This document shows positions 1 to 55,654 of a stretch of 64,000 bases of DNA, piece after piece. This stretch comes from Candidatus Sulfotelmatobacter kueseliae. GTDB taxonomy: Bacteria; Acidobacteriota; Terriglobia; Terriglobales; Acidobacteriaceae. Position 1 is the first letter of the stretch. Every line of letters starts with the position of its first letter. Location of the stretch: the NCBI GenBank assembly GCA_900290255.1, contig OMOD01000122.1:14314-78313 (forward strand), in the 5' to 3' direction. Position numbers and translations under genes: made by a program. The notes beneath the pieces are model-generated. The model was not told the origin of the DNA, did no database searches, and was given only the letters and a program-made list of their open reading frames with translations.

Positions 1-199
1 GGCCGATGCTACCGTGTGGGCCCGCTTCACGGAGGGCACGCTGCTGGTGGCCCGCGAAGGAAAGACGGAAAAGGCCCAATTGCAGAAGGGGCTGGAGGTT
101 CTGAAGAAATCAGAACTCCTCGGAGTTGTCTTGAACGGCGTTACTAACCCGAATCATAAGAACTATTATCAGCGCTACGCACCACAGGAAGCTAAGTAA
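1..199 (+). CDS. C-terminal end of a BY-type tyrosine autokinase / chain-length regulator (partial; gene starts upstream of window)
   Basis: Frame is open from the window edge to TAA at 197-199. ...GTLLVAREGKTEKAQLQKGLEVLKKSELLGVVLNGV... resembles the end of CpsD/Wzc/EpsG-type kinases and is followed by a Tyr-containing tail (KNYYQRY). It heads a polysaccharide locus. Confidence 0.5.
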   Translation, partial: ADATVWARFTEGTLLVAREGKTEKAQLQKGLEVLKKSELLGVVLNGVTNPNHKNYYQRYAPQEAK

Positions 200-342
200 C
201 TCCAGTCCGCCTTTCGGCGTGTGTACCTCTCTGCGCCGAAGCCTGAACAACCGAACCAGTTTGACCGTCTCCCCCGGTAAAGCCAAGCACATTATTGGAT
301 CCCCACATTCAACTCGCTTTCGCATACTTGAGGAGAAAAGCC

Positions 343-852
343 GTGAATTCCAGAGCACTAGACACTCCAAGTAGCAGAGTTTTCGTCGCAAGAGCCATGG
401 GTCGCACCCTTGATGAGGATGCCTTTCACCGGATGATCTCAATCGAGCGGCGGAGAGCCGCCCGATCGCGCAAGTCGTTTCTACTGATGCTGCTGGATAT
501 GGGTGACCATTCGACTTCGAAGAATCAGGGGACCAGCCTCCGAAAGATTTTGTCTACATTGGGCCTGATACTGAGGGAAACGGATGTCACCGGTTGGTAC
601 AAGGGAGATTCCGTCGTCGGAGTAATGTTTACGGAGATCACTCTGGATGACGAAAACTTCATTTTCGCCACGATGATGAGCAGGGTAAGCCAAGCGCTGA
701 AGAGTCGTCTGTCCCCTCAGCAGTTTAACCAGATTGGTATCTCGTTCCACCTGCTCCCAGAAGTGCGGGACCATGGGCTCGCCTCACGAAGTCTCTATCC
801 GGCGGTGTATTCCGTTTCCGCTCCCAACAGTCGCACAGGAACATCACTGTAG
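343..852 (+). CDS. Stand-alone degenerate GGDEF-like domain protein, paralogue of the N-terminal domain of the priming transferase at 4012-5145
   Basis: ORF 295..852; likely GTG start at 343 behind AGGAGA (331-336). FLLMLLDMG...[22 protein letters not shown] follows the GGDEF-domain strand pattern. RxxD (RETD, 574-585) lies 5 residues before the GG[DE]EF position, which reads KGDSV (601-615). Clearly alignable to residues ~40-165 of ORF 3964..5145. Confidence 0.6.
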   Translation: MNSRALDTPSSRVFVARAMGRTLDEDAFHRMISIERRRAARSRKSFLLMLLDMGDHSTSKNQGTSLRKILSTLGLILRETDVTGWYKGDSVVGVMFTEITLDDENFIFATMMSRVSQALKSRLSPQQFNQIGISFHLLPEVRDHGLASRSLYPAVYSVSAPNSRTGTSL

Positions 853-2304: not shown

Positions 2305-2485
2305 AAGCTCGGCGCAAGGCTACGCTGCAAGCGGTCGATCGCGAAACCGAATGAATCTCAATATGGGTAACGAGCCAGCCGCCAGACAACTCGAGAAAGA
2401 GGTGGAACCATTCTTGGAGCACGTACTCCCACTTCGCTCCGGGCATGGCGATGCGCGCTGGAGTACCCGCCGGTTCCTGCGAGTG

Positions 2486-3919
2486 ATGAAGTTCGGCGGA
2501 ACCTCGGTTGGCGACGCGGCCTGCATCCGGAAGGTGATAGAAATCATCCGGCGGGGGTCAGCGGAAAGTGACCTTGTGGTAGTTGTGTCCGCGATGAGTG
2601 GTGTGACCAACCAGCTGATCGAGACGGCTACCCAATCAGAAGCCGGCGATCGCGGATGCGCGACGAAGATTCTCGAAGACCTGCGTGCGCAGCACGACAC
2701 GGCTCTCAAAGCGTTGATTCATCCGGGCCCGGAGCGTGATCGCATCGCTCGCAAGATACGAGAGCTTTTTGAACAGTGTGAACGTTGGTGCGCAAGCACG
2801 GCTGTGCTGGGCCAACTGACGCCGCAGATGCGGGACTCGATATCCAGTCTTGGGGAGCGCCTCTCGGCTCCTCTGGTTGCTGTTGCTCTGGCTGCGCAGG
2901 GCGTGGCCAGCGAAGCGGTCGACGCCACTCAGTTGGTGGTCACGGATGGGTATCACGGCGCCGCTGACCCTAAGATGGACCTCACCCGCGAGCGCTGCGA
3001 AGCACGCCTCAGGCCGTTGCTGCAACAGGGCGTCATCCCCATCGTGACTGGCTTCATTGGAGCAACAGAGGATGGTGTGCTCACAACTCTTGGCCGCGGC
3101 GGTTCGGACTATTCCGCAACCATCCTCGGAGCGGCTCTCGAGGCGGATGAAGTCACGATTTGGACAGATGTGGACGGTATGCTCACGGCTGATCCGCACC
3201 TGGTGCCTAGTGCGAGCACCATTCCCGAAATTTCCTACCGCGAGGCGGCCGAGCTTGCTTATTTCGGGGCCAAAGTTCTGCACCCGAAGACTCTGTATCC
3301 CGTCATGCAAAAGCGTATTCCGGTCTGGATCCGGAACACCTTCGCATCGGAAAAAGCGGGAACAAAAATCACGCCCGGGGGGCATGCAGCCAGCGTGGGA
3401 GCGAAGGCTCTTACCGCGGTCAGCGAGGCAGCGCTGATCACTCTTGGTGGACCTGTTCTCAGCGGTGTGCCCGACGTTGTCGGCCGGGCGTTGGCGGCCG
3501 CTGCATCGGTTCGGACTGACGTGCTGATGAGCTGCCATTCCCCCTCTTGCAACCACGTCTGTCTGGCCGTGGCTGCTGCGTCGGCTCAGAAGACGGTTGA
3601 GGCGTTGCGTCGCGAATTCGCGCGAGACGCGAAACATGATGGTGCAGAGCATGTGACTGTCGATTCGACCGTTGCGATCCTCACCGTGGTAGGGCACAAC
3701 CTGCACCTTGTTCGGGGGATTGTCGGACGCGCGGTTGATGAGTTGAGCCGGGAGAACGTGAACGTGATCGCGACTGCACATGGATCGATGGAGCGGAACG
3801 CTTCATTCGTAGTCGCCAGAAAAGACATCCAGACCGCACTGGTTACCACTCACCGGGAGTTCCAACTCTGCGTTTTGAACTTGCCGCAGGAAAGCAGATC
3901 CGAAGCACAAGCTCTGTAG
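2486..3919 (+). CDS. lysC: Aspartate kinase
   Basis: ORF 2351..3919; canonical start MKFGGTSVGD at ATG 2486. VVVVSAMSGVTNQLIE, TTLGRGGSDYSATILGAAL and WTDVDGMLTADP are aspartokinase signatures. The C-terminal ACT-like region carries VVGHNL...ISRENVNV. Confidence 0.9.
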   Translation: MKFGGTSVGDAACIRKVIEIIRRGSAESDLVVVVSAMSGVTNQLIETATQSEAGDRGCATKILEDLRAQHDTALKALIHPGPERDRIARKIRELFEQCERWCASTAVLGQLTPQMRDSISSLGERLSAPLVAVALAAQGVASEAVDATQLVVTDGYHGAADPKMDLTRERCEARLRPLLQQGVIPIVTGFIGATEDGVLTTLGRGGSDYSATILGAALEADEVTIWTDVDGMLTADPHLVPSASTIPEISYREAAELAYFGAKVLHPKTLYPVMQKRIPVWIRNTFASEKAGTKITPGGHAASVGAKALTAVSEAALITLGGPVLSGVPDVVGRALAAAASVRTDVLMSCHSPSCNHVCLAVAAASAQKTVEALRREFARDAKHDGAEHVTVDSTVAILTVVGHNLHLVRGIVGRAVDELSRENVNVIATAHGSMERNASFVVARKDIQTALVTTHREFQLCVLNLPQESRSEAQAL

Positions 3920-4011
3920 AGGCACCGCCATCCCCCAATGAGCCCAATTAACGGGTTCGCCAAGTGATTCCGACTCGCGCCAAAAGCGAAGGGAAAGCAA
4001 GAGAGGGAGTA

Positions 4012-5145
4012 GTGAATCTACGTCGATCAGATCGGACCCTGACACTGTCAGAGCCACCAAGAAGCCGGGAATGTCTGGTGCTCGACGAAGCATCGTTCCG
4101 GAGCATGATCGCGCTGGAGAGAAAGCGAAGCGAGCGCTCTGGAAAGCCAGTGCTGCTGATGCTGCTGGATGCCGGGAGTAGTCTGTCCTTCGAAAGGAAC
4201 GAAAGAGTGCTCAGCAAGATTCTTTCTGCACTTTCGTTGTCCACGCGAGACACCGACGTTACCGGCTGGTACCAGAACCACTCAGTGGTGGGCGTAATGT
4301 TCACTGAAATGGGCTCGGATGATCATGGCGAAATTCTCGGGACCATGATGAGTCGCGTGAGCCAGACTCTGCGAGACAACTTGAGCCTGGAGAAGTTCAG
4401 CCAGATCAGCATTTCCATGCACGTGTTTCCCGAAGACTGGGAGCACGAGACTTCGTCGGCCAACCTCGCTTTATATCCGGATCTTGAGCATCGCGAAAGG
4501 ACGCGAAGAGCCGTCCTCGTGATCAAGCGGCTGATGGACATCGTGGGCAGCGTGACCGCGATGGTGCTCTTCTTTCCCATATTCTTTCTGGTTGCGTTGC
4601 TGGTCAAAATGGGGTCCAAGGGGCCGATTTATTACAAGCAGGAACGCTTGGGACAATTTGGAAGGCCATTCACATTCCTGAAGTTCCGATCGATGTATGT
4701 GAACAACGATCACGAGATTCATCGCGAATTCATGAAGCACGTGATCAACGGAGACCACGACGGAGAAGTGGAGGGCGAGGGCAAGAAGGTCTACAAGATG
4801 ACGAACGATCCGCGCATTACGCCGATCGGCCGTTTCCTGCGCCGCACCAGTCTGGATGAGCTGCCGCAGTTCCTTAACGTTCTGCGGGGAGATATGTCGT
4901 TGGTCGGACCACGACCGCCGATCGCGTACGAATGCCAGGAATATGACGTCTGGCACCGGCGCCGCGTTCTCGAAGTCAAGCCTGGAATTACCGGGCTTTG
5001 GCAAGTGACCGGGCGCAGCCGGGTGCGCTTCGACGACATGGTGCGACTGGACCTCCAATACGTACGGACGTGGTCATTGTGGCTCGACATTAAGATCCTG
5101 CTCAAAACCCCGAGGGCCGTGCTGTTCGGCGGGGACGCATTCTAG
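4012..5145 (+). CDS. Priming phosphoglycosyl transferase (bacterial sugar transferase family, undecaprenyl-phosphate hexose-1-phosphate transferase type) with an N-terminal degenerate GGDEF-like domain
   Basis: ORF 3964..5145; likely GTG start 4012 behind GAGGGAG. C-terminal half: [27 protein letters not shown] (single hydrophobic helix), [64 protein letters not shown]-terminal ~125 aa are paralogous to 343-852, with RDTD (4246-4257) and QNHSV in place of GG[DE]EF. Confidence 0.9.
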
Positions 5146-5257
5146 ACGTTCCCCTATTTGTTAGTTGAAATACGGAAGGAGCATTGCAGTGGAAAGTCAA
5201 GTTGGGAGACCGACTGCGTTGGTTAAATCAGCAACGGATGACGCCAGTGGCTCGCGT

Positions 5258-6430
5258 ATGGACCTGGCGCAGACGCGAGTCGATGCGCCTGCAGAGACGC
5301 TTCCTAAAGCGAAGAACAGAATCTGGATTGATATCGACAATTCTCCGCATGTCCCGTTCTTCCTGCCAATCGTCGATGAATTGCAGAGACGCGGAATGGA
5401 ACTGACCCTGACCGCCCGCAACATGTATCAGGTTTGCGAGTTGCTCGACTTCTTTAAGCTTCCCTGCAAAGTGGTCGGCGGTCACTGGGGCAAGAACAAG
5501 GCTCTCAAGGTTCTGTGCAACTGCGTAAGAGTCGCGCAGTTGGTGCCGACGGCGCGTAAGGCCCGTCCGGATCTTGCGCTTTCCCACGGTTCGCGGGCGC
5601 AATTGCTTGCGTCCAAAATTCTGGGTATCCCCAGCATCATGATGCACGACTATGAACACTCCACGAAAACAGGTTTTCTTGAGGCTGACTGGGTCCTGAT
5701 GCCGGACGTAATCCCGGATGGATTGATGAGCAGGAAATCGGAAAGAGTGCTTCGGTATCCCGGCCTCAAAGAGGACGTGTACATCCCGCGCTTTCGTCCC
5801 GACCCCTCAATCCTGCCCCAGCTAGGGATCTCGCCCGATCAACTGGTGGTGACGGTCCGGCCGCCCGCAACCGAAGCGCACTATCACAACCCCGAGAGTG
5901 AAGTGCTGTTTACCGAAGCCATGCGTCTGTTGTCTTCTAACCCCAGCGTTCGTGCAGTGACCTTGCCTCGGAATGCACGGCAGAGCCAGCAACTGCAATC
6001 GGAATGGAAAGACCTGATCGCCTCTGGTTGCATGCTGATCCCAAGTAGTCCGGTCGATGGCCTCAATTTGCTCTGGTTCTCGGATCTGGTCATCAGCGGC
6101 GGTGGCACCATGAATCGCGAAGCCGCGGCTCTCGGAGTTCCCGTCTACAGTATCTTTCGAGGCAAAATTGGAGCCGTCGATCGCTACCTGGCCGAACAGG
6201 GCAGGATGACGCTCATTGAAAGTGCCCAAGAAGTCCGGACCAAGATTAAGGTGTGCCGGTGGAATCGACCCTCCGAACCGGAAGGCCGGTCCCGGCCTGC
6301 GCTCCAGTTCATCGTGAATAGTGTCCTGTCCGTGCTGGCCGCCCAGGATCCGCGATTTAGCGCCTGGCAAATGCGCGGCACTCCCGAGTCAAAGATTCAC
6401 CCGAGACAAGCCAGTACGGCGCAATCCTGA
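5258..6430 (+). CDS. DUF354 family protein (GT-B/epimerase-like fold, function unknown)
   Basis: ORF 5165..6430; probable ATG at 5258. RIWIDIDNSPHVPFFLPIVDELQRRGMELTLTARN...DLALSHGSRAQLLASKILGIPSIMMHDYEHS matches my recollection of the DUF354 N-terminal signature. Confidence 0.75.
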   Translation: MDLAQTRVDAPAETLPKAKNRIWIDIDNSPHVPFFLPIVDELQRRGMELTLTARNMYQVCELLDFFKLPCKVVGGHWGKNKALKVLCNCVRVAQLVPTARKARPDLALSHGSRAQLLASKILGIPSIMMHDYEHSTKTGFLEADWVLMPDVIPDGLMSRKSERVLRYPGLKEDVYIPRFRPDPSILPQLGISPDQLVVTVRPPATEAHYHNPESEVLFTEAMRLLSSNPSVRAVTLPRNARQSQQLQSEWKDLIASGCMLIPSSPVDGLNLLWFSDLVISGGGTMNREAAALGVPVYSIFRGKIGAVDRYLAEQGRMTLIESAQEVRTKIKVCRWNRPSEPEGRSRPALQFIVNSVLSVLAAQDPRFSAWQMRGTPESKIHPRQASTAQS

Positions 6431-15393: not shown

Positions 15394-15430
15394 GGCCGTG
15401 CGAAGGGAGCAGGGGAGAGCGTCCGAACAA

Positions 15431-24814: not shown

Positions 24815-24856
24815 TGGTTCACAAATGGAAGCAAGCACCTTGTGGGGAGGTGTGAT

Positions 24857-30563: not shown

Positions 30564-30592
30564 AACGGACGAGAAATCAGGACCGGGGAGAG

Positions 30593-40700: not shown

Positions 40701-40766
40701 GAGAGAGTACTCAGTTGGGAGTAGCTGCACCCACCGCTCCAACAAAACACAGAGGAAACTTGCATT

Positions 40767-41018
40767 ATGGAAGAATTGTTGACCAAAGTGCGGACGGCCT
40801 TTCAATCAGCGTTCAGCATTGATCCGCAGACCGTTACTATTGACACTGTACCAAGCGACGTTCCGGCTTGGGACTCCATGGGACATGTCACGCTGGCTAG
40901 TAGCCTCGAACAAGCCTTCGGCTTGACTTTCGATGTAGACGACCTGATGGCGATGGAGGACGTGAAATCAATCTGCCGGGTCGTACAATCCAAGCTAGGT
41001 CAGGTTCAACGTGCGTAA
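40767..41018 (+). CDS. Acyl carrier protein
   Basis: 83 aa; DVPAWDSMGHVTLASSLEQAFGLTF contains the DSxx attachment motif. Confidence 0.8.
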   Translation: MEELLTKVRTAFQSAFSIDPQTVTIDTVPSDVPAWDSMGHVTLASSLEQAFGLTFDVDDLMAMEDVKSICRVVQSKLGQVQRA

Positions 41019-50500: not shown

Positions 50501-53500
50501 ACCGCCTTTCTCGAGAAGCGCAACCAGCCGGGCGATCGTGCGCGCTTGCTCGACAACCGCTTCTTCGAGCGTGCTGCCCTTGGACTGGATACTTGGCTGA
50601 GCATTCGTCCGGACGTCCGCAAGAGAGTTTGCGGTCGGAATAGGAGTGGCTTCGGCGAGAGCCTCGGCAGGCAGGGTCGAATCAAGATGCGCCGCCAACA
50701 TGTCAATGTTGGGGAACTGCTTCATGAGCTGACTGAAGCTGACCTTCACGGAGAACTCCTTTTGGACAGCGAAGGCGACCTGGGTTAACGACAGCGAGTC
50801 GAATCCCTGCTCCATGAACGTAGCGGAAGTGTCAATTTGCGAACGTTCGCGTCCGGAGACAGGTAAGAGCAGATCAATCACGCGCGCAGCGATGCGGTCC
50901 TTGCGCGAGCCTGCCCCGCGTCCCGACGTAACGGCCTCTGTGAGTGCAGACGGGAGAGCAGACGGCGCCACGGAGGGCTCGGTTGATGGCTCAACTCGGA
51001 CGCCAGCCGCCGCACTCGAACTCCTGTTCTCGGGATTTTGCGCAGTGGACGCCTCGGCGGGATCCACCCAGAACCGCTGCCGCTCAAACGGGTAGGTCGG
51101 CAATGGTATGCGATGACGCTCTTCGTTAGTGTAAAAGCCTTCCCACTCAATGGACACGCCATTCTGCCAGAGGGACCCCAGGGCAAAAAGCAGAGTAGCC
51201 CACTCGGTGTTGTTCTCCGCCGTGTCGGCAAACGTCGGGATCGCGGTACAAGGATGATCGGGCGTAAAGTGCTGGCGGGCCAATGCACACATTGTGGAAC
51301 GTGGTCCGCATTCCAGGAAAAAGTCGTGTCCTTGCTCCTTAAGGCATAGGATGGCTTTTGAAAACTCCACTGTAGCCCGAGCATGATTGGCCCAATACGC
51401 GGGATTGCTGGTCTCGGCGGCGGTAATGGAGCGTCCTGTTACCGTCGAGACAAAGGGCTTGGCCGGAGCACGCAAGCGGATTTTGGCAACGGCCTGGCGC
51501 AACGGCTCGATCATGGGATCCATCATCGCGGAGTGGAAGGCATGTGAGGTGTGCAGTTGGCGGCAGACAAAGTTTTCGGCCTCGAGTTGCTTCCGGAATT
51601 GCGCAATATTCTCTTCCGGCCCCGACACCACGCATAGAGCGGGAGCATTGTTGGACGCAAGCTGAAGTCCAGGCGGAAGAATCTTTGCAACCGATTCCGC
51701 GCTGCTGCTCACGGCCATCATGGAGCCACGCGGCAGTTCCTGCATCAAGCGTCCCCGCAGAGCGACAACGCTGAGTGCATCCTCGAGATCCCACACCCCG
51801 GCGAGCGTGGCAGCGACAAACTCTCCGATGCTATGTCCCGCCATCAGGGCAGGCTCGACGCCGAGGCTTTGCCAGAAGCGCGCCAGCGCGTATTCGATGA
51901 CAAAAATCGACGGCTGTGTGAAGAACGTGTCCCGCAATGATATCTGAGCCGTCTCTTCGTCTCCGCTCTGGGGATAAAGAAGTTCGCGCAAATCCCGGCC
52001 GAGATGCGGTTTAAGGCACTCGCAACAATCGTCAACGACTGCGCGAAAAAGCGGCTCGTCACGATAGAGGTTCAATCCCATGTTGACGTACTGCGTGCCC
52101 TGACCGCCGAAAAGGAAAACGATGGGTGGATCGCGACGCTCGCAGCGTTTGCTCCCGCAGCGTAACGGATTCGGTTGCAAGAGCAGCTTGGCGGCATCGC
52201 CGGAATCGGCGGCTACCACGAATCGCCGCTGCGCCAGCTGTTTGCGCCCGGTTTGGAAGGTGTAGGCCACATCGGCCAGATCTTCCGGTGCGCTCGCGAG
52301 ATGCTCGGCCAACGCCCGGCTGTAGGCATCAAGGGCTGCTGGACTCTTGGCTGAGAGCGGCAAGAGTTGCAGTGGGCGCGAAGGCCGCCCGCTCTTTGCC
52401 ACCGGCGCTTCTTCCAGGATGACGTGGACATTCGTCCCGCCAAAGCCAAACGAGCTGACCGCTGTGCGACGCACTCCCTTTCCACGAGGAAACGGGATGA
52501 GCTTGTCGGCCATGAGGAACGGGCTGCCACCGAAATCGATCTTGGGATTGGGTGTCTTGAAATGCAGGGTCGGAGGAATTTGCTCGCGATGGAGAACGAG
52601 GGCCGCTTTGATCAGGCCTGCAACTCCAGCGGCATTGGTGGGATGCCCGATGTTTCCTTTGATGGATCCGATATAACAGAAGTTCTTCTTGTCGGTCTTG
52701 TTCTCAAAAACTCTTCGCAGAGCTTCGAATTCAATCGGATCGCCGACCGGGGTGCCCGTACCGTGCGCCTCGATGTAGCCGATAGTCTCGACCGGGACGT
52801 TAGCATTTGCCTGCGCCAGGGCAATGGCCTCCGCTTGGCCGTCCACGCTCGGGGCCAGAAAAGAAGCGGGGCGGGCACCGTTGTTGTTCTTGCCGGTGCC
52901 GCGAATGACGGCATAAATGGTGTCGCCATCGGCTAGAGCTTCGGCATACCGCTTGAGGACGACCACGCCGGCGCCGTCGCAGAACATGGTTCCGGTAGCG
53001 TCAGCATCAAAAGGACGGCAGTGGCCATCTTTGGAGAACGTGCCTCCCTGCTGATATAGGAATCCGCTCCTCTGCGGCACCGTGATGTCGATGCCGCCCG
53101 AGAGTGCGATGTCACATTCGTAGTCGAGCAGTGAGTGGTAGGCTTCGTCGATAGTCAGGAGCGTAGTCGAACAGGCTGTATTGAGGCTGACCGCGGGTCC
53201 GCGAAGGTCCAGCAGATAAGCGGTGCGCAGGGCGATGTAGTCTTTTTGGTTGCCGTACTCAACGGCCAGCTTGCCGGCCATGGCCAACAAATCCGGTTGC
53301 GTCAAGAGGTTCGTGGTGTAGTAGTGATTGTCACCGATACCCGCGAACACTCCAATGCGCCCTTTATAGCGCTCGGGGTCGTACCCGGCGTTTTCCAGCG
53401 CCTGCTGCGCCAGTTCGAGAAAGATCCGCTGCTGCGGGTCCATGACCTTGGCTTCAAGCGGATTGATGCCAAAGAACGCGGCATCGAAGAGATCCGCGCC

Positions 53501-55654
53501 CTCGATCAAGCCGCGGGCCCGGATGTAATCGGGATCGCGGCGCAGATGGGGATCGATGCCAGGTCCCAGTTCTTCGGGTGTGAAAAAAGAGATCGATTCG
53601 ACGGCATTGCAGAGGTTGCGCCACAGCTGATCGAGATTGGCCGCTCCCGGGAAGCGGCCCGTCATACCGATCACCGCGACACCTTCCCGCAGAAGCCCGT
53701 CCTCGGTGGCCGGATTTCGTTCTGACTTGGGCTGCGGATTCCGCCGATGCCGCGCCCGCTCTTCAGCTTCGGCAACCAGATCGGACTTGCTCTCACTCTC
53801 TTCTAGGAACTCTGCGAGCTTCGCGATCGTGGGATACTGAAAGACCTTGACGGGAGGAATCTCGCGCCCAAAGCGCGTGTGATACTGATTCACCATACGG
53901 ACCGCTGCCAGCGAATTGCCGCCGAGATCGAAGAAGCTGTCATCAATTCCAACCTCTTCGAGTTGCAGCAGCTCGCACCAGAGACTTGCCAGTTGCCTTT
54001 CGGCTGCTGTGCGCGGAGCGATAAATTCCTGGGCGAGCAGCGGCCGTTTGCCCTCGGGCCGGGGCAGGGCTTTGCGATCAATCTTGGCGTTCGGAGTCAG
54101 AGGGAATTTCTCCAGACGCACGAAAACGGAAGGGATCATGTAGTCGGGAAGCGTAGTTTTGAGGAACTGAACGAGAGAGGTGGAACTCAGACCTTCGCGG
54201 CCCGTGTAATAGGCGGCTAGGCGTTTCTCTCCCGGACGGTCCTCGCGTAGGATCACGACGGCCTGGGCGATTCCTTCAACTTTGGCCAGCGAGCTTTCGA
54301 TCTCGCCCAGTTCGATGCGAAAGCCGTGGAGCTTCACCTGGTTGTCGAGACGCCCCAGAAATTCCAGTGAACCGTCGGGCCGATAGCGGACTTGGTCACC
54401 AGTACGGTAGAGCCGCTCACCCCGTCCCTCGCGGGTGGGATCGAGGACAAACCGTTCAGCCGTCCACTCGGGGGGGTTGAGATACCCACGAGCCAAACCC
54501 GCACCGCCAATCCAGAGCTCGCCGGGAGTCCCTTGGGAAACCGGTTTGTGGTTTTCATCGAGCAGGTGGAATTGCGTGTTGGCAATGGGTGTGCCGAGCG
54601 AGACCAGGTCGGGTGAGGTCACGCGCTCAGTCGAGGACCAGATCGTGGTCTCCGTCGGCCCATACATGTTCCAGAGTTCGCGGCAGCGAGGCAGCAATTG
54701 CCGAGCGATGTCCGCGGTCAGAGCCTCTCCCCCGCAAAAGACTCGCAGGTCACTCTTTCCTTCCCAGCCGTTTTCGAGAAGCATGCGCCAGGTCGCCGGC
54801 GTCGCCTGCATCACGGTGATCGCGTGTTGATGTAGCAGCGTCTGGAGTTCACGGGCGTCCGCAGCCTGTTCCGCAGTGGCGAGAACAATCTCGGCGCCGC
54901 AGACCAGCGGGAGCAGGAATTCCAGGAGCGAGATGTCAAAGGAACTCGTCGTGACCGCCAGGAGCCGATCGGAAGAAGCTATGCCCGGTGTTTCCGCCAT
55001 CGACAGCAAGAAATTGACCAGTGCCCGGCGCTGGATCATGACCCCCTTGGGTTTTCCCGTCGAGCCCGAAGTGTAAATCAGATAGGCGAGATGTTCGGGC
55101 TTTCCAGATGAGGCGAGGTTGGTCGCCGGCAGCCCGGCGATCGACTGATTCTCGACGTCGAGTGAAATAACTCGCGCAGCAGTTTCCGGCAGGCTCCCCC
55201 GCTTGGAAGAATGTGTCAGGAGAAGAGGGACTGCGGAGTCCGCCAGCATGAACGCCAGACGGTCGTTCGGAAACTTCGGATCCAGGGGCAGGTAAGTTCC
55301 GCCGGACTTGAGGATGGCAAAAAGGCTCACAACGGAAGCGAACGAACGGTCAAGATACACACCCACCACGCTCTCAGGACCGACTCCTTGCTGGCGAAGG
55401 AAGTGTGCTAGGCGGTTTGAGCGGGAATTCAGCTCCCGGTAGGAAATTCGTTCTGCACCCAGGGAGAGCGCGGGAGCGTCAGGCGTACGCTCGGCTTGCT
55501 CCTCAATCAGCTCGTGCGGGCCTCGCCGCAGGGGCGCAAAAGTTCTTGCGACACCACGAGTCAGTTTCCCGTGACCCGGGCCACTAGTCTTGGAGGGCGC
55601 TGTCGAACCACCATCCCGGACTGCAATTTCTTCGACATCACTGCGTAACTTCAT
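47576..55654 (-). CDS. Hybrid NRPS-PKS megasynthase, domain order A-T-KS-AT-T-C-T-(GNAT-like), 2692 aa
   Basis: Single uninterrupted ORF. The core motifs of every domain were located by eye (see the domain sub-features). Confidence 0.95.
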   Translation of the reverse strand: MKLRSDVEEIAVRDGGSTAPSKTSGPGHGKLTRGVARTFAPLRRGPHELIEEQAERTPDAPALSLGAERISYRELNSRSNRLAHFLRQQGVGPESVVGVYLDRSFASVVSLFAILKSGGTYLPLDPKFPNDRLAFMLADSAVPLLLTHSSKRGSLPETAARVISLDVENQSIAGLPATNLASSGKPEHLAYLIYTSGSTGKPKGVMIQRRALVNFLLSMAETPGIASSDRLLAVTTSSFDISLLEFLLPLVCGAEIVLATAEQAADARELQTLLHQHAITVMQATPATWRMLLENGWEGKSDLRVFCGGEALTADIARQLLPRCRELWNMYGPTETTIWSSTERVTSPDLVSLGTPIANTQFHLLDENHKPVSQGTPGELWIGGAGLARGYLNPPEWTAERFVLDPTREGRGERLYRTGDQVRYRPDGSLEFLGRLDNQVKLHGFRIELGEIESSLAKVEGIAQAVVILREDRPGEKRLAAYYTGREGLSSTSLVQFLKTTLPDYMIPSVFVRLEKFPLTPNAKIDRKALPRPEGKRPLLAQEFIAPRTAAERQLASLWCELLQLEEVGIDDSFFDLGGNSLAAVRMVNQYHTRFGREIPPVKVFQYPTIAKLAEFLEESESKSDLVAEAEERARHRRNPQPKSERNPATEDGLLREGVAVIGMTGRFPGAANLDQLWRNLCNAVESISFFTPEELGPGIDPHLRRDPDYIRARGLIEGADLFDAAFFGINPLEAKVMDPQQRIFLELAQQALENAGYDPERYKGRIGVFAGIGDNHYYTTNLLTQPDLLAMAGKLAVEYGNQKDYIALRTAYLLDLRGPAVSLNTACSTTLLTIDEAYHSLLDYECDIALSGGIDITVPQRSGFLYQQGGTFSKDGHCRPFDADATGTMFCDGAGVVVLKRYAEALADGDTIYAVIRGTGKNNNGARPASFLAPSVDGQAEAIALAQANANVPVETIGYIEAHGTGTPVGDPIEFEALRRVFENKTDKKNFCYIGSIKGNIGHPTNAAGVAGLIKAALVLHREQIPPTLHFKTPNPKIDFGGSPFLMADKLIPFPRGKGVRRTAVSSFGFGGTNVHVILEEAPVAKSGRPSRPLQLLPLSAKSPAALDAYSRALAEHLASAPEDLADVAYTFQTGRKQLAQRRFVVAADSGDAAKLLLQPNPLRCGSKRCERRDPPIVFLFGGQGTQYVNMGLNLYRDEPLFRAVVDDCCECLKPHLGRDLRELLYPQSGDEETAQISLRDTFFTQPSIFVIEYALARFWQSLGVEPALMAGHSIGEFVAATLAGVWDLEDALSVVALRGRLMQELPRGSMMAVSSSAESVAKILPPGLQLASNNAPALCVVSGPEENIAQFRKQLEAENFVCRQLHTSHAFHSAMMDPMIEPLRQAVAKIRLRAPAKPFVSTVTGRSITAAETSNPAYWANHARATVEFSKAILCLKEQGHDFFLECGPRSTMCALARQHFTPDHPCTAIPTFADTAENNTEWATLLFALGSLWQNGVSIEWEGFYTNEERHRIPLPTYPFERQRFWVDPAEASTAQNPENRSSSAAAGVRVEPSTEPSVAPSALPSALTEAVTSGRGAGSRKDRIAARVIDLLLPVSGRERSQIDTSATFMEQGFDSLSLTQVAFAVQKEFSVKVSFSQLMKQFPNIDMLAAHLDSTLPAEALAEATPIPTANSLADVRTNAQPSIQSKGSTLEEAVVEQARTIARLVALLEKGGGNRIAAEDETPVVQKLSTDGSKPAIVRSSPRDIEATVPQRGIFSSSRLSERLSASYNESMTLRFTGKISVAKMMGAMERLVERHDALRTSFDETGRMMKIAPALKIAMPVTDLSMQVPANEPDWQEQRFRKLIADETALPFPLPAGPLFRCQMVLLGAERAAVIITAHHIICDGWSLDVLIHDLCAFYSEELSGAPVHLELADSYGDYVKNTTERERSAEFKQAGNYWHAKFHDGFPVLVLPTDHPRSARREFNARRLDHSISASVVRDLRALGAEHNCSFFAVLLSSLAILLARISRQHRFVITLPTAEQPSIGQPGLVGHCVNLLPFAVELREGEAAEAFLKRVQADLLAAHEHAIFTMVSLMEDLHPAAPTPGISPISVGLTNIKKFKQNELPQFGFAVDYEANPKAFESFELYLNVVEAEENLALHCHYDIKLFADLTVREWLVTLGSIFEELAADPSRKVTQLARLKWSETASATEIVYKRIPNREMTRQSVSPALGSTPGAPQQFSDTPTISGMSEATLVQSLIPLWQRVLNGSEIGPDDDFFALGGHSVAAAQLFALIQSELGCTPPLAALYDAPTPRKLASVLGRGMKAEDGPSLGLARKDPGLRPFAVDDIPQVADLWWKFLRYGKGAPPSGLHSYFEELYFRSPLIDERTPSRVYEGKNGRIVGFLGVVRRKMSLRGRPLCIAVGGNFVVAPEARSSLAGLRLLTAYMAGEQDISLTDSANDISRSLLERMGFRTIMPLSMHWARPLRLTNYAAHAMSKLAGPTLSASLRIAARPFCSVVDAIGARLPFSPLRPIPSHLQAAELDVEVLLHCLAKFRSDHSILPDYEVDSLKWLLTFMERMHPRSELRKIVLRDDRQKVVGWYIYYPKIGDVAQAVQIGGESRFGKDILDHLFYDAWSQGAVGLHGTAPIHLMDALSQKNCFFTCGRGGWTIAHSRKPELLELLVRGDASLSRLDGEWCLNFDD
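47579..48682 (-). other. C-terminal ~370-aa tandem GNAT-like domain (paralogue of 25976-27310); not a TE or R domain
   Basis: No GxSxG or Rossmann motif. FVVAPEARSSLAGLRLL resembles GNAT motif A. Collinear similarity to the stand-alone 444-aa protein. Confidence 0.55.
48731..48943 (-). other. Peptidyl carrier domain T3 (Ser2273), no cognate A domain in cis
   Basis: DDFFALGGHSVAAAQL. Confidence 0.8.
49100..50413 (-). other. NRPS condensation domain
   Basis: HHIICDGWS (HHxxxDG at residues 1886-1892), preceded by ATVPQRGIFSSSRL and followed by YGDYV and LPTDHPR. Confidence 0.8.
50675..50902 (-). other. PKS-type acyl carrier domain T2 (Ser1620)
   Basis: FMEQGFDSLSLTQVAF. Confidence 0.8.
51215..52126 (-). 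other. Acyltransferase domain (Ser1275), malonyl-type HAFH motif
   Basis: FLFGGQGTQY, MAGHSIGEFVAA, LHTSHAFHSAMM. Confidence 0.85.
52409..53686 (-). other. Ketosynthase domain (Cys828, His964, His1004)
   Basis: VAVIGMTGRFPGA, SLNTACSTTLLTI, IEAHGTGTPVGDPIE, GSIKGNIGHPTNAAG, SSFGFGGTNVHVILEE. Confidence 0.9.
53801..54013 (-). other. Peptidyl carrier domain T1 (Ser581)
   Basis: DDSFFDLGGNSLAAVRM. Confidence 0.85.
54050..55522 (-). other. NRPS adenylation domain (residues ~45-535), predicted glycine-specific
   Basis: LAYLIYTSGSTGKPKGV, SSFDISLLE, NMYGPTETT, GELWIGGAGLARGY, YRTGD, PNAKIDR. Hand-extracted 10-residue code: D-I-L-Q-F-G-M-I-W-K. Confidence 0.85.

What the first reader, a model, noticed from the sequence alone, without database searches (positions are those of the whole stretch)
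1..55654. Locus-level hypothesis: a Wzx/Wzy glycan pathway physically merged with thiotemplate chemistry
A complete set of repeat-unit polysaccharide functions is present: BY-kinase tail, priming PGT, six or more GTs, Wzx, a Wzy-like protein, a deacetylase, WecB, dTDP-Rha genes and a nucleotide-sugar dehydrogenase at 60.7 kb. These are interleaved over 55 kb, mostly in long co-directional operons, with three carrier-protein systems, an NRPS-PKS lacking a hydrolytic release domain, transferase-fold proteins (FemAB-like, two tandem GNAT-like) and tailoring enzymes (2 FMO-like, P450, SDR, MT, LuxC).

The simplest unifying idea is that the thiotemplate product is not released as a free metabolite. 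Instead it would be transferred onto a sugar or lipid-linked glycan, giving an aminoacyl-ketide-decorated polysaccharide or glycolipid. This is inference from gene content only.
Basis: inference. Interest (0 to 1): 0.75.

Follow-up and report, generated by a model that had tools for sequence, protein, structure and literature searches.

The report
Glycan locus with carrier-protein acyl transferases
In a peat-soil Acidobacterium, the genes for a surface polysaccharide sit beside three carrier-protein systems, including an NRPS-PKS that ends in an acyl-transferase-like domain instead of a release hydrolase; related genomes keep these genes together, so the sugar polymer is probably decorated with unusual acyl groups, though this is untested.

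Summary
The window comes from Candidatus Sulfotelmatobacter kueseliae (Acidobacteriota).

- Block A (FMO, MetY, MetA, a 444-aa protein, ACP, AMP-ligase, SDR, lipocalin, P450) is collinear with Wzy-like, GT2 and WecB in five or six diverged relatives.
- The 2692-aa megasynthase is A-T-KS-AT-T-C-T plus a C-terminal domain of about 365 aa.
- That domain's AlphaFold model has an N-myristoyltransferase/Eis-like tandem-GNAT fold. The 444-aa protein has the same fold.
- The domain belongs to a large, unannotated, mostly stand-alone family. Its members sit after free ACPs, after ACP-ligase-LuxE-LuxC-MT-FabZ cassettes, or between glycosyltransferase genes.
- The fusion is conserved as one open frame in at least 8 other genomes.
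- Some of the closest orthologues carry a thioesterase instead. They still sit next to PGT, GT2, Wzy-like or WecB genes.
- One relative has blocks B and C nested inside block A.

Best reading: carrier-protein-bound acyl groups are moved by tandem-GNAT transferases onto a sugar or glycan amine. The donor, acceptor and product are all inferred.

I rate it a new variant of a known kind (Dlt, NodFE/NodA, RkpA, rfbKLMNO). Interest is about 0.66.

The parts
2..199 (+). C-terminal tail of a BY-type tyrosine autokinase (the gene runs off the window)
   Evidence: TIGR01007 partial match, profile positions 143-203 of 204, E 9.5e-8
295..852 (+). 185-aa protein, no family match; related to the extra N-terminal part of PGTs in relatives
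   Evidence: No Pfam hit. The PGT ORFs of L091/L092 also hit it at 104 bits. A 50% homologue lies with GT2a directly upstream of the megasynthase in L018/L021/L076
1042..2304 (+). ATP-grasp ligase
   Evidence: CPSase_L_D2 / ATP-grasp_3
2351..3919 (+). Aspartate kinase with ACT domains
   Evidence: AA_kinase 185 bits; TIGR00657 367 bits, above its cut-off of 209
3964..5145 (+). Priming polyprenyl-phosphate glycosyl-phosphotransferase (PGT)
   Evidence: Bac_transf 232 bits; TIGR03025 292 bits, cut-off 296
5165..6430 (+). DUF354 protein (GT-B/epimerase-like)
   Evidence: PF04007 139 bits
6484..7635 (+). FemAB-like / Acetyltransf_6 transferase
   Evidence: PF13480 71 bits, PF02388 62 bits; TIGR03019 131 bits, below its cut-off of 260
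7662..8855 (+). 397-aa protein of unknown family
   Evidence: No Pfam, NCBIfam or PDB sequence match; not related to the FemAB-like neighbour
9005..10045 (+). GT2 glycosyltransferase ('GT2a')
   Evidence: PF00535 94 bits; 62-63% homologue directly upstream of the megasynthase in L018/L021/L076
10063..10815 (+). Polysaccharide deacetylase (HfsH-like)
   Evidence: PF01522 63 bits; NF050820 168 bits, below cut-off
11060..12646 (+). Secreted 528-aa protein rich in Gly/Asn/Ser/Thr, with an N-terminal hydrophobic segment; function unknown
   Evidence: No significant family or PDB match; one N-terminal hydrophobic segment
12663..13940 (+). GT4 glycosyltransferase
   Evidence: Glyco_trans_1_4 / Glycos_transf_1
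13933..15393 (+). Wzx-type flippase
   Evidence: Polysacc_synt_3 203 bits; about 12 TM segments
15398..16609 (+). WbsX-family glycosyltransferase
   Evidence: PF14307 457 bits
16606..18651 (+). Two GT2 glycosyltransferases (16606-17631 and 17641-18651)
   Evidence: PF00535 129 bits each
18670..20082 (+). 470-aa polytopic membrane protein, candidate Wzy polymerase
   Evidence: About 9 TM segments; no family or PDB match; 62-72% homologues conserved beside GT2d-WecB in relatives
20116..21045 (+). GT2 glycosyltransferase ('GT2d')
   Evidence: PF00535 73 bits; conserved next to WecB in relatives
21042..22103 (+). UDP-GlcNAc 2-epimerase (WecB)
   Evidence: PF02350 356 bits
22259..23497 (+). Flavin monooxygenase-like protein 1
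   Evidence: Pyr_redox_3, Lys_Orn_oxgnase
23537..24814 (+). O-acetylhomoserine sulfhydrylase-type PLP enzyme (MetY)
   Evidence: TIGR01326 617 bits, above its cut-off of 495; 88-90% identical in relatives
24842..25924 (+). Homoserine O-acyltransferase (MetA)
   Evidence: NF003776 391 bits, above its cut-off of 358
25976..27310 (+). 444-aa tandem-GNAT (NMT/Eis-like fold) protein directly upstream of ACP1; proposed acyl-ACP-dependent acyltransferase
   Evidence: No Pfam hit; more than 500 homologues at up to 64% identity. AF2 model pLDDT 78; Foldseek hits NMT at E 1e-13 and Eis2. Weak homology to the megasynthase C-terminal domain
27350..27622 (+). Free-standing acyl carrier protein 1
   Evidence: ACP models, sub-threshold; PP-binding on the called gene
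27679..29310 (+). AMP-forming ligase 1 (ANL family)
   Evidence: AMP-binding 286 bits
29313..30563 (+). Flavin monooxygenase-like protein 2
   Evidence: Pyr_redox_3, Lys_Orn_oxgnase
30548..31864 (+). ATP-grasp-like ligase 2
   Evidence: CPSase_L_D2 24 bits; NF009406 42 bits
31989..32765 (-). Short-chain dehydrogenase/reductase
   Evidence: adh_short_C2 229 bits
32877..33344 (+). Lipocalin_5 protein
   Evidence: PF13924 99 bits
33549..34778 (+). Cytochrome P450
   Evidence: PF00067 129 bits; its 82-88% homologue flanks the megasynthase in L016 and L049
36690..39018 (-). rmlD, rmlC and rmlA
   Evidence: RmlD_sub_bind 294 bits, dTDP_sugar_isom 243 bits, NTP_transferase 241 bits
39032..39600 (-). 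3' fragment of rmlB (N-terminal Rossmann part missing)
   Evidence: Matches only GDP_Man_Dehyd profile positions 201-332; the frame translation shows similarity ending at a stop near 39.6 kb
40767..41018 (+). Free-standing acyl carrier protein 2
   Evidence: ACP models, sub-threshold; 68-87% homologues head the conserved cassette
41011..42507 (+). AMP-forming ligase 2
   Evidence: AMP-binding 219 bits; TIGR01733 203 bits, sub-threshold
42504..43667 (+). LuxE-type acyl-protein synthetase
   Evidence: PF04443 197 bits
43540..44916 (+). LuxC-type acyl reductase
   Evidence: PF05893 194 bits
44941..45840 (+). SAM-dependent methyltransferase
   Evidence: Methyltransf_23/25
48671..55654 (-). NRPS-PKS assembly line A-T-KS-AT-T-C-T (residues 1 to about 2328 of the 2692-aa ORF)
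   Evidence: Pfam domains. Motifs read in the translation: GGNSL, TACS, GHSIGE...HAFH (malonyl type), GFDSL, HHIICDG, GGHSV. No KR, DH, ER, TE or R domain
47576..48670 (-). C-terminal tandem-GNAT (NMT/Eis-like) domain fused after the last T domain; proposed release by acyl transfer
   Evidence: Weak GNAT Pfam hits. AF2 pLDDT 88.5; Foldseek hits NMT at E 6e-13 with TM about 0.5, and 3n7z with TM 0.57. 55-71% identical to stand-alone proteins of about 364 aa. The fusion is one open frame in 8 further genomes, plus a 5'-cut frame in L017
55923..56306 (-). Glyoxalase/bleomycin-resistance fold protein
   Evidence: PF00903 89 bits; flanks the megasynthase in L013, L022 and L049
56571..57719 (+). LamG + VanZ membrane protein
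   Evidence: PF04892, PF13385; flanks the megasynthase in L013, L016, L049 and L090
59897..60376 (+). FabZ-like dehydratase, displaced member of the ACP2-ligase-LuxE-LuxC-MT-FabZ cassette
   Evidence: FabA 82 bits; NF000582 124 bits, above its cut-off of 113; directly follows MT in about 30 loci
60681..62045 (+). Nucleotide-sugar 6-dehydrogenase (closest to the UDP-ManNAc dehydrogenase type)
   Evidence: TIGR03026 417 bits, above its cut-off of 190; NF008286 259 bits, sub-threshold

Best explanation
The window holds a surface-glycan (Wzx/Wzy-type) super-locus that recurs in Terriglobia (Acidobacteriota). In it, acyl or aminoacyl groups are built on phosphopantetheinyl carrier proteins. They are then moved, by aminolysis rather than hydrolysis, onto an amine of a sugar, a lipid-linked repeat unit or the polymer.

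The proposed transferases belong to an unannotated family with a tandem-GNAT fold like N-myristoyltransferase and Eis. One is the free 444-aa protein next to ACP1. The other is the 365-aa domain fused after the last T domain of the NRPS-PKS.

Three suppliers feed the system:
- **Block A:** ACP1 and AMP-ligase 1, with FMO, P450 and SDR tailoring enzymes and AspK/MetA/MetY supplying a homoserine or homocysteine-derived precursor.
- **Block B:** ACP2, AMP-ligase 2, LuxE, LuxC, MT and FabZ.
- **Block C:** a Gly-type A domain, one malonyl extension with no reduction, then C-T.

The HfsH-like deacetylase could expose the acceptor amine, as NodB does for NodA.

**Shown:** gene and domain content, predicted folds, the fusion, and co-localisation in many genomes.
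**Inferred:** the donor (acyl-S-carrier protein), the acceptor (a glycan amine), the substrates and the product.
For: **Block A stays with the glycan genes.** In L004/5, L006/7, L169 and L170 the run Wzy-like-GT2d-WecB-FMO-MetY-MetA-unk444-ACP-ligase-(FMO-ATP-grasp)-SDR-lipocalin-P450 is collinear with the window. unk444 identity there is 54-64%. The upstream GT sets differ.

**Both proposed transferases share a fold and sit next to carrier proteins.**
- Both models match the NMT/Eis tandem-GNAT fold.
- The two are weakly homologous.
- Each lies directly beside a carrier protein or T domain.

**The fused domain belongs to a large, mostly stand-alone family.**
- The family has 2174 clusters at 50% identity.
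- Of 96 copies in 79 genome loci, 9 are fused.
- Stand-alone members follow a free ACP in an EPS locus (L008).
- About 30 follow the ACP2-ligase-LuxE-LuxC-MT-FabZ cassette.
- Others sit with overlapping stop and start codons between Wzy-like/GT2 and GT2/GT4/FemAB genes (L057 and relatives).
- In Rokubacteria and Gaiellaceae the pattern is PGT ... A-domain-like ligase ... GNAT364.

**The megasynthase keeps returning to glycan genes.**
- The megasynthase-GNAT fusion is a single open frame of 2338-2828 aa in 8 other genomes, plus a 5'-cut frame in L017.
- Orthologous megasynthases lie next to unk185+GT2a (L018/21/76), PGT+GT2d (L091/92), Wzy-like+GT2a+GT2d (L093) or WecB (L117).
- In L016/L023, blocks B and C are nested between the lipocalin and P450 genes of block A.
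- In the control set of non-orthologous Gly-type NRPS loci, only 13 of 72 show any glycan-gene homologue.

**Published precedents.** Carrier-protein or PKS genes inside glycan clusters are already described for the Aeromonas flagellin glycosylation islands (PMC7874193) and for RkpA/WcbR (PMC3908369).
Against: - There is no biochemical or expression evidence. Acceptor and donor are inferred from context and a predicted fold, and the TM-scores are only about 0.5.
- NMT and Eis use CoA thioesters and acylate proteins or small amines, not glycans.
- Some of the closest orthologues of the same assembly line (L089: KS 89% identical) end in a type I thioesterase. This fits release of a free or cyclised product.
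- Megasynthase loci L022 and L024 show no glycan gene in the readable flank. The downstream flanks are unrelated housekeeping genes.
- Most relatives are Acidobacteriota, so part of the co-localisation may be inherited synteny.
- In the window itself, blocks B and C are separated from block A by a truncated rmlB and about 3 kb of apparently non-coding DNA, which are signs of recent rearrangement.
- Flanks were limited to 10 kb.
Confidence: 0.5

Rival explanations
1. The direction is reversed: the product is a glycolipid or glycopeptide natural product. The NRPS-PKS and ACP systems make a small aminoacyl-ketide or acyl aglycone. Some of the neighbouring GTs and sugar-nucleotide genes glycosylate it, as in mycobacterial glycopeptidolipids or heterocyst glycolipids. 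The Wzx/Wzy polymer itself is not decorated.
For: GT2a+unk185, PGT or WecB lie directly beside the megasynthase in relatives, which also fits glycosylation of the product. TE-ending orthologues imply a releasable aglycone.
Against: The GNAT family members sit inside runs of repeat-unit genes (Wzy-like, Wzx, PGT, several GTs, deacetylase), not beside a single tailoring GT. A PGT initiates lipid-linked glycans, not aglycone glycosylation. The window's version has a transferase-fold terminus rather than a release hydrolase.
Confidence: 0.17
2. The systems are independent neighbours. The NRPS-PKS and the LuxE/LuxC cassette make free or membrane-bound small molecules, such as an N-acyl amino acid, a signal or an aminolipid. 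They lie near EPS genes only because envelope and secondary-metabolite genes gather in a variable genomic region inherited among related Terriglobia.
For: The megasynthase sits at the edge of the locus with unrelated genes on its other side. L022 and L024 lack visible glycan neighbours. A truncated rmlB, a displaced fabZ and pseudogene-like gaps show the region is rearranged. 18-24% of unrelated NRPS loci also have some glycan gene nearby. TE versions exist.
Against: The association recurs in different arrangements and with different glycan partners. This is not what inherited synteny predicts. Blocks B and C are nested inside block A in L016/L023. GNAT364 homologues are translationally coupled to GT genes and co-occur with PGT in other phyla. 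Block A is co-directional with WecB across a 155-bp gap, and this holds in five or six relatives.
Confidence: 0.15
3. The acceptor is a protein or a lipid head group rather than a glycan. The NMT-like transferases would N-acylate secreted or PEP-CTERM-type proteins, or an amino lipid, linked to the EPS matrix.
For: The best structural matches are protein N-myristoyltransferases. A PEP-CTERM domain protein lies 8 kb from the GNAT364 triplet in L009. ACP1's best (sub-threshold) NCBIfam hit is the ornithine-lipid ACP.
Against: There is no exosortase or PEP-CTERM gene in the window, and the XrtA-linked models all score below cut-off. The fold match reflects the shared tandem-GNAT topology (Eis and the 3n7z acetyltransferase score similarly), with 9-14% identity. 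The family's nearest neighbours are GTs, PGT and Wzy-like genes.
Confidence: 0.1

Closest known systems
NodB/NodA with NodF/NodE (rhizobial Nod-factor N-acylation) - from my own knowledge
   Same: A glycan is de-N-acetylated. An acyl chain made on a dedicated ACP (NodF, extended by the ketosynthase NodE) is then transferred from the carrier protein to the freed sugar amine. The window holds a deacetylase, dedicated ACPs, a KS-containing assembly line and candidate acyl-ACP transferases in one glycan locus.
   Different: NodA is not a GNAT-fold enzyme. The acceptor there is a chito-oligosaccharide made by a synthase (NodC), not a Wzx/Wzy repeat unit. No NRPS is involved. Nothing here has been tested biochemically.
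ACP / AMP-ligase / LuxE / LuxC cassettes in glycan loci: Aeromonas flagellin glycosylation islands (PMC7874193); V. cholerae O1 rfbKLMNO tetronate genes (from my own knowledge)
   Same: The same gene set (ACP, AMP-dependent synthetase, LuxE, LuxC) is embedded among glycosyltransferase genes. It is thought to build an acyl substituent of a sugar.
   Different: Here the cassette also carries MT and FabZ and is followed by a tandem-GNAT protein. It is linked to an NRPS-PKS. There is no LuxD. The Aeromonas and Vibrio cassettes are not known to use an NMT-like transferase.
RkpA/WcbR type I PKS in capsular-polysaccharide clusters of rhizobia and Burkholderia (PMC3908369)
   Same: A modular type I PKS is encoded inside a capsule biosynthesis and export cluster.
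   Different: RkpA/WcbR are PKS-only and belong to group 2/3-like capsule systems. The window has an NRPS-PKS hybrid with C-T and a GNAT terminus in a Wzx/Wzy-type locus.
DltA/DltC D-alanylation of teichoic acids; Pks13 TE transfer of mycolate to trehalose - from my own knowledge
   Same: A carrier-protein thioester is passed to a glycopolymer or sugar instead of being hydrolysed. Pks13 TE appears among the sequence matches of the TE found in orthologous megasynthases.
   Different: Dlt uses an MBOAT (DltB) and DltD. Pks13 uses an alpha/beta-hydrolase TE. Neither uses a GNAT-fold domain.
GNAT-fold acyl-ACP-dependent N-acyltransferases (N-acyl amino acid synthase FeeM, OlsB, AHL synthases) and tandem-GNAT enzymes (NMT, Eis, FemX) - from my own knowledge, plus Foldseek
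   Same: The GNAT fold binds a phosphopantetheine thioester and acylates an amine. The tandem-GNAT topology matches NMT/Eis.
   Different: No Pfam or NCBIfam model for these families reaches its cut-off. Sequence identity to NMT/Eis is 9-14%. None of the known enzymes is fused to the end of an assembly line.

Membership tests
Wzx/Wzy-dependent repeat-unit polysaccharide pathway | Priming polyprenyl-phosphate glycosyl-phosphotransferase | tested here: met
   3964-5145: Bac_transf 232 bits; TIGR03025 292 bits, cut-off 296
Wzx/Wzy-dependent repeat-unit polysaccharide pathway | Wzx flippase | tested here: met
   13933-15393: Polysacc_synt_3 203 bits, about 12 TM segments
Wzx/Wzy-dependent repeat-unit polysaccharide pathway | Wzy polymerase | tested here: inconclusive
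   18670-20082 has about 9 TM segments and is conserved beside GT2d-WecB. It has no Wzy/O-antigen-ligase Pfam match and no PDB sequence match
Wzx/Wzy-dependent repeat-unit polysaccharide pathway | PCP/BY-kinase co-polymerase and OPX (Wza) exporter | tested here: inconclusive
   Only a 65-aa kinase tail lies at the window edge. No OPX was found among the ORFs scanned; it may lie upstream of the window
dTDP-L-rhamnose pathway (RmlABCD) | All four enzymes intact | tested here: not met
   RmlA, RmlC and RmlD are intact. rmlB is a 3' fragment covering profile positions 201-332 only
Modular NRPS-PKS hybrid | A, T, KS, AT, ACP and C domains with catalytic motifs | tested here: met
   Pfam domains. 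The Ser of the three carrier motifs, the KS Cys/His motifs, GHSIGE and HHIICDG were read
Modular NRPS-PKS hybrid | Canonical release domain (TE, R or terminal C) | tested here: not met
   Residues 2329-2692 give only weak GNAT hits and model as a tandem-GNAT fold. Orthologues L089/L091/L092/L094/L117 do carry a TE
GNAT superfamily, tandem-GNAT (NMT/Eis-like) class | Two GNAT-fold lobes in one chain | tested here: met
   AF2 models with pLDDT 88.5 and 77.8. Foldseek against PDB gives NMTs at E about 1e-12 to 1e-13, with TM 0.47-0.57, plus Eis2 and 3n7z. These are predicted structures only
GNAT superfamily, tandem-GNAT (NMT/Eis-like) class | Sequence membership in a curated GNAT, NMT or Eis family | tested here: not met
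   Acetyltransf_7, _1 and _9 score 13-19 bits, below their cut-offs. NCBIfam gives no hit. unk444 has no GNAT hit
GNAT superfamily, tandem-GNAT (NMT/Eis-like) class | Uses an acyl-phosphopantetheine thioester donor and an amine acceptor | not testable with these tools
   Inferred from adjacency or fusion to carrier proteins
LuxCDE fatty-acid reductase | LuxC reductase, LuxE synthetase and LuxD acyltransferase | tested here: not met
   LuxC and LuxE Pfam domains are present, but they score far below the NCBIfam equivalog cut-offs (69 against 750 and 77 against 550). No LuxD was found
XrtA/PEP-CTERM exosortase-associated EPS locus | XrtA-associated marker families (TIGR03019 FemAB, TIGR03018 kinase, TIGR03098 ligase, TIGR03006 deacetylase, TIGR03013 PGT) above cut-off; an exosortase gene | tested here: not met
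   All hits are below cut-off: 131 against 260, 22 against 231, 218-244 against 592, 23 against 276, 152 against 393. No exosortase was seen in the window
Dlt-type carrier-protein-dependent glycopolymer acylation | DltB MBOAT and DltD | tested here: not met
   No MBOAT or DltD hit in any of the Pfam scans of window ORFs

The most novel reading that the evidence does not exclude
The roughly 365-aa tandem-GNAT family (GNAT364 and its distant relative unk444) is a new class of chain-release and off-loading enzyme for carrier-protein thioesters. It ends an NRPS-PKS line by direct aminolysis onto an amino sugar of a lipid-linked repeat unit or polymer. Abundant soil and peat Acidobacteria would then make exopolysaccharides carrying peptide-ketide and other thiotemplate-derived acyl groups. 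Release fate would be switchable in evolution by swapping TE and GNAT.
Probability: 0.35. Interest if true: 0.85.

Novelty: new variant of a known kind. Interest (0 to 1): 0.66.

Why it matters
Acidobacteriota are among the most abundant soil bacteria. Their exopolysaccharides are thought to matter for soil aggregation, desiccation tolerance and carbon storage, yet their chemistry is almost unknown.

If the reading is right, three things follow:
- A family of more than 1000 sequence clusters with no annotation would gain a role as carrier-protein-dependent glycan acyltransferases.
- NRPS/PKS enzymology would gain a cis-acting, GNAT-fold release mechanism that can be exchanged with a thioesterase.
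- Genome-mining tools that call such loci 'orphan NRPS-PKS clusters' would be mis-assigning cell-surface glycan decoration as secondary metabolism.

The T-GNAT didomain and the ACP1/unk444 pair are small, soluble-looking targets. The hypothesis can therefore be tested directly in vitro, even though the organism is uncultured.

Tried and rejected
- **XrtA/PEP-CTERM locus.** Filing the locus here was rejected: every marker model is below cut-off and no exosortase was seen.
- **46127-47200 as a second GNAT-like protein.** There is no similarity to the megasynthase C-terminal domain. No homologue was detected in the loci scanned. ARAGORN's 4-base-anticodon 'tRNA' inside it is probably spurious.
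- **7662-8855 as a paralogue of the FemAB-like neighbour.** No similarity; no Pfam or PDB match.
- **PDB sequence searches** for the Wzy candidate and the secreted 528-aa protein returned nothing.
- **Rfam** scan of the whole window found nothing.
- **Promoter/terminator scan** of 20-40 kb gave fewer sites than shuffled controls, so it says nothing about operon structure.
- **Repeat search** around the rml/block B junction found no IS-like inverted repeats.
- **Word-indexed protein search** with T3+GNAT did not return the window's own 2692-aa protein or any fused relative among its best 120. Fused forms had to be found through DNA loci.
- **Metagenome scan with the A domain** mostly returned unrelated Gly-type NRPSs at about 50-56% identity. 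These were used as a control set.
- **L169.** The T-TE gene after its P450 first looked like the TE-type megasynthase. It is only 29% identical to that TE and is a separate T-TE protein.
- **Literature searches** found no description of this acidobacterial system or of a GNAT-type NRPS release domain. Nothing in the searchable library covered the V. cholerae tetronate genes.

Full report
**Source and gene map**

An exact-sequence look-up places the window on JGI peat metagenome contigs. The source name attached to the 444-aa protein is Candidatus Sulfotelmatobacter kueseliae, an uncultured Acidobacteriota organism. ORF listing and Pfam/NCBIfam scans give the following map.

- **Glycan run, + strand, 0.3-22.1 kb.** BY-kinase tail, a 185-aa protein, ATP-grasp, aspartate kinase, PGT, DUF354, FemAB-like, a 397-aa protein, GT2, HfsH-like deacetylase, a secreted 528-aa protein, GT4, Wzx, WbsX, two GT2, a 470-aa membrane protein, GT2, WecB.
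- **Block A, 22.3-34.8 kb.** It starts 155 bp after WecB on the same strand: FMO, MetY, MetA, a 444-aa protein ('unk444'), ACP1, AMP-ligase 1, FMO, ATP-grasp-like, SDR (-), lipocalin_5, P450.
- **Gap and rml genes.** About 1.9 kb with no convincing gene, then rmlD-rmlC-rmlA and a 3' fragment of rmlB on the - strand, then another 1.1 kb gap.
- **Block B, 40.8-45.8 kb.** ACP2, AMP-ligase 2, LuxE, LuxC, methyltransferase. A Gly-rich 357-aa ORF follows.
- **Block C, 47.6-55.7 kb, - strand.** One 2692-aa megasynthase.
- **Remainder.** Glyoxalase (-), a LamG/VanZ protein, about 2.2 kb of pseudogene-like sequence, FabZ, a nucleotide-sugar dehydrogenase and a MOSC protein.

**Check of the observation**

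The corrections are as follows.

- rmlB lacks roughly its N-terminal 165 residues.
- The 'Wzy-like' protein has about 9 TM segments and is syntenic, but it matches no Wzy model and no PDB sequence.
- No OPX or exosortase gene is in the window.
- LuxC is paired with LuxE.
- MetY exceeds a curated cut-off (TIGR01326: 617 against 495), as does MetA (391 against 358), and aspartate kinase exceeds the TIGR00657 cut-off. All three look like true homoserine/methionine-pathway enzymes.

**The megasynthase**

Pfam and the translation give this architecture:

| Domain | Residues | Motif read |
|---|---|---|
| A | 51-524 | |
| T | 554-617 | GGNSL |
| KS | 657-1032 | TACS, HGTGT, NIGH |
| AT | 1179-1480 | GHSIGE...HAFH, the malonyl-type signature from general knowledge |
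| ACP | about 1600-1656 | GFDSL |
| C | 1752-2190 | HHIICDG |
| T | about 2240-2310 | GGHSV |
| terminal domain | about 2329-2692 | |

There is no KR, DH or ER domain.

I aligned the A3-A10 motifs by eye to GrsA-PheA, recalled from memory. The specificity code reads D-I-L-Q-F-G-M-I-W-K, close to published glycine codes. This is a lead, not a test.

The last module has no A domain, so T3 must be loaded in trans or by the N-terminal A domain. That step is inference.

**The terminal domain and unk444**

The terminal 365 aa give only sub-threshold GNAT hits and no NCBIfam hit. An AlphaFold2 model built on 32 homologues has pLDDT 88.5. Its best PDB matches are N-myristoyltransferases (E about 6e-13, TM about 0.5) and an Eis-like B. 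anthracis acetyltransferase (TM 0.57). This is the tandem-GNAT fold.

unk444 gives the same answer: pLDDT 77.8, with NMTs and Eis2 as best matches. It is weakly homologous to the terminal domain (30% over 127 aa, pairwise E 7e-4). The locus therefore holds two members of one fold class. One lies next to a free ACP and the other is fused to a T domain.

**The family of the terminal domain ('GNAT364')**

- The word-indexed search returned only stand-alone proteins of 320-426 aa among its best 120, at 55-71% identity.
- A profile search of 1.84 billion representatives found 2174 clusters (E up to 1e-3), of which 1015 are at E up to 1e-30.
- Only one of the best 150 carries the domain at the end of a long protein.
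- A scan of GTDB species genomes gave 79 loci. I laid the window's proteins over them with tblastn and phmmer. Of 96 copies, 9 are fused.

The fusion is one open frame of 2338-2828 aa in L013, L016, L018, L021, L022, L024, L049 and L076, and a 5'-cut frame in L017. It is a real, conserved architecture and not an assembly artefact.

Stand-alone copies occur in three recurring settings:
1. Directly after a free ACP inside an EPS locus. In L008 the order is GT4, hexapeptide transferase, Wzx, MT, deacetylase, sulfotransferase, Acetyltransf_6, ACP, GNAT364.
2. After the cassette ACP2-ligase-LuxE-LuxC-MT-FabZ, in about 30 loci. Often a divergent stand-alone C, a P450, an A-T protein and an unk444-like protein follow (L009/L032, L020, L034, L038, L040, L042, L052, L053).
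3. Inside runs of glycan genes. In L057 the order is Wzy-like, GT2d, a 450-aa ligase-like protein, SDR, GNAT364, GT2a, GT4, FemAB, FMO, with overlapping stop and start codons. L050, L051, L056-L065 and L072 are similar.

Outside the Acidobacteriota, Rokubacteria (L075, L081) and a Gaiellaceae MAG (L088) show PGT, then an A-domain-like ligase, then GNAT364.

Of 72 stand-alone-centred loci:
- 51 have a carrier protein, an ANL ligase, LuxE/C or NRPS/PKS genes nearby.
- 32 have a homologue of one of the window's glycan genes or FemAB within 10 kb.

The second figure is a lower bound, because detection relied on homology to the window's own proteins.

**Co-conservation of block A with the glycan genes**

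Contexts of unk444 homologues at 54-64% identity, on contigs from 44 kb to 3 Mb, show the same order every time. That order is Wzy-like, GT2d, WecB, FMO, MetY, MetA, unk444, ACP, ligase, optionally FMO and ATP-grasp, SDR (-), lipocalin, P450.

This holds in L004/5, L006/7, L169 and L170. The GT, methyltransferase and acetyltransferase genes further upstream differ between them. L169 has Alg14/Glyco_tran_28_C genes in place of the Wzy-like protein.

MetY is 88-90% identical across these loci. That is notable for a gene sitting in a variable surface-glycan locus.

**Co-localisation of the megasynthase**

*Genome loci*
- L018, L021 and L076 have unk185 (50%) and GT2a (62-63%) directly upstream.
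- L049 has the block A-type P450 (88%) upstream.
- L017 has block B within 5 kb.
- L016 and L023 are overlapping stretches of one contig. Together they read FMO2, ATP-grasp2, SDR, lipocalin, ACP2, ligase 2, LuxE, LuxC, MT, FabZ, GNAT364, a TPP enzyme, VanZ, megasynthase, P450. Blocks B and C are thus nested inside block A.

*Metagenome scan with the A domain*
- L091/L092: a divergent PGT (55%), with GT2d further on.
- L093: Wzy-like (43%), GT2a (51%), GT2d (47%) and a 909-aa protein, then the megasynthase.
- L117: WecB (69%) 1.3 kb upstream.

*Counter-examples and control*
- L022 shows only a GNAT364 paralogue and a TPP enzyme. L024 shows nothing recognisable.
- The flank on the far side of the megasynthase is variable and unrelated: a periplasmic binding protein, FG-GAP proteins, rhamnose catabolism genes, a TonB-type barrel and a phospholipase C. 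The megasynthase therefore marks an edge of the locus.
- As a control, 72 non-orthologous Gly-type NRPS loci from the same scan have a glycan-gene homologue in 13 cases (18%), or 5 of 21 for loci of at least 18 kb.
- Among about 12 orthologous megasynthase loci with a readable flank, 7 have a glycan gene and 10 have a glycan, block A or block B gene.
- The loci are phylogenetically related, so these are indications and not probabilities.

**An unexpected point: thioesterase versions**

Some of the closest orthologues have the same A-T-KS-AT-T-C-T line and a similar length (2591-2644 aa). Identities to the window are:

| Locus | A | KS | C |
|---|---|---|---|
| L089 | 80% | 89% | 75% |
| L117 | 72% | 86% | 64% |
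| L091/L092/L094 | 67-69% | 74-75% | 61% |

These end in a type I thioesterase of about 280 aa with a GYCLGG motif. It matches NRPS, EntF, Pks13 and FAS thioesterases. GNAT-ending relatives are no closer to the window than L089 is (L016: A 77%, KS 88%).

TE and GNAT termini have therefore been exchanged among near orthologues. This cuts both ways:
- The same chain can evidently be released by a hydrolase-fold domain.
- The TE versions are also the ones sitting next to PGT, GT2 and WecB, and some TEs (Pks13, from my own knowledge) transfer their product to a sugar.

A neighbour-joining tree without support values places the fused copies and a few stand-alone ones in one subclade. The window's copy is nearest to the stand-alone L008/L010 copies. 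This hints at repeated fusion or fission.

**Rearrangement in the window**

In about 30 loci FabZ follows the methyltransferase directly. In the window it lies 14 kb away, beyond the 357-aa ORF, the inverted megasynthase, the glyoxalase gene and the VanZ gene. Together with the truncated rmlB and the gene-poor gaps, this shows that the present order is recent. The association of the blocks is older than this order.

**Mechanism proposed**

*Shown:* the domain and gene content, the predicted folds, the fusion and the recurring neighbourhoods.

*Inferred:*
1. ACP1, ACP2 and T3 carry acyl or aminoacyl thioesters.
2. unk444 and GNAT364 use these thioesters as donors. This rests on their adjacency or fusion to carrier proteins, and on the general ability of GNAT-fold enzymes to bind a phosphopantetheine thioester.
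3. The acceptor is an amine on a sugar nucleotide, a lipid-linked repeat unit or the polymer, possibly exposed by the deacetylase.
4. The block C product is a glycine-derived gamma-amino-beta-keto acyl unit, extended at the C-T module.

I put this at about 0.5.

*Rivals:*
- A glycosylated small molecule, with the direction reversed (0.17).
- Independent neighbours in a rearranging envelope region (0.15).
- A protein or lipid acceptor (0.10).

**Comparison with known systems**

Glycan decoration that depends on a carrier protein is an established idea:
- Dlt D-alanylation, NodF/NodE/NodA with NodB, and V. cholerae O1 rfbKLMNO (all from my own knowledge).
- The ACP/ligase/LuxE/LuxC genes of the Aeromonas flagellin glycosylation islands (PMC7874193).
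- RkpA/WcbR PKS genes in capsule clusters (PMC3908369).

The locus is not a member of the XrtA/PEP-CTERM set, of LuxCDE or of Dlt, because the defining features fail.

Two things appear new. One is the tandem-GNAT family as the link between carrier proteins and glycan genes. The other is its cis-fusion to an NRPS-PKS as an alternative to a TE. My limited literature searches found no description of either.

**Verdict**

The interpretation passes the comparative-genomics test its author proposed, but it remains unproven biochemically. It is a new variant of a known kind, with interest 0.66.

Noticed in passing
window 39032-39600 (-) and 39600-40766: rmlB is a 3' fragment. RmlB-like sequence begins at about '...[19 protein letters not shown]' just after a stop, and the N-terminal Rossmann part is absent. 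It is followed by about 1.1 kb holding only small ORFs, including a 61-aa Lys/Arg-rich ORF at 39776-39961. This marks a rearrangement junction between the rml genes and block B.
   Followed up: partly
L089, L091, L092, L094, L117 (C-termini of the megasynthase orthologues): Near-orthologous megasynthases carry a type I thioesterase with a Cys in the nucleophile position (GYCLGG) where the window has the tandem-GNAT domain. This is a release-domain swap among close relatives.
   Followed up: yes
window 2351-3919, 23537-24814, 24842-25924: Aspartate kinase, MetY and MetA score as true Met-pathway enzymes yet sit inside the glycan/ACP operon. MetY stays 88-90% identical and in the same position in relatives. 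This suggests a homoserine or homocysteine-derived building block, or a housekeeping gene pair captured in the operon.
   Followed up: partly
window 59897-60376 (+) against 44941-45840 (+): fabZ directly follows the methyltransferase in about 30 related loci. Here it is 14 kb away, separated by the inverted megasynthase and its flanking genes.
   Followed up: yes
L022 914-2458, L023 11137-12684, L056/L059 ~19.5-21.1 kb, L169 13411-14958, L170 20825-end: A 515-aa thiamine-diphosphate enzyme (75-87% identical between loci) recurs beside blocks A, B and C in relatives. It is absent from the window.
   Followed up: partly
window 57720-59896: Gene-poor stretch with overlapping short ORFs. One of them (58502-58780, -) contains a protein-kinase-like 'HGDLKPENIFL' motif, so it is probably a pseudogene remnant.
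   Followed up: no
window 34779-36689: About 1.9 kb with no convincing gene between the P450 and rmlD. It holds a 43-nt direct repeat (35760 and 36436, 81% identical). Relatives have only small called genes of 46-81 aa here.
   Followed up: partly
window 46127-47200 (+) and 46541-46634 (-): A Gly-rich 357-aa ORF with a Pro-rich tail. No homologue was detected in the loci scanned. ARAGORN calls an odd tRNA-like element with a 4-base anticodon inside it, probably a false positive.
   Followed up: partly
window 295-852; L091 443-1693; L092 8292-9542: The 185-aa protein is homologous to part of the 416-aa PGT ORFs of relatives (104 bits). It may be a detached PGT accessory or regulatory domain.
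   Followed up: partly
L049 13161-15303 (-); L169 20536-end (-): Small T-TE didomain proteins (PP-binding + Thioesterase, about 340 aa) lie next to the megasynthase or the block A P450 in relatives. None is in the window.
   Followed up: partly
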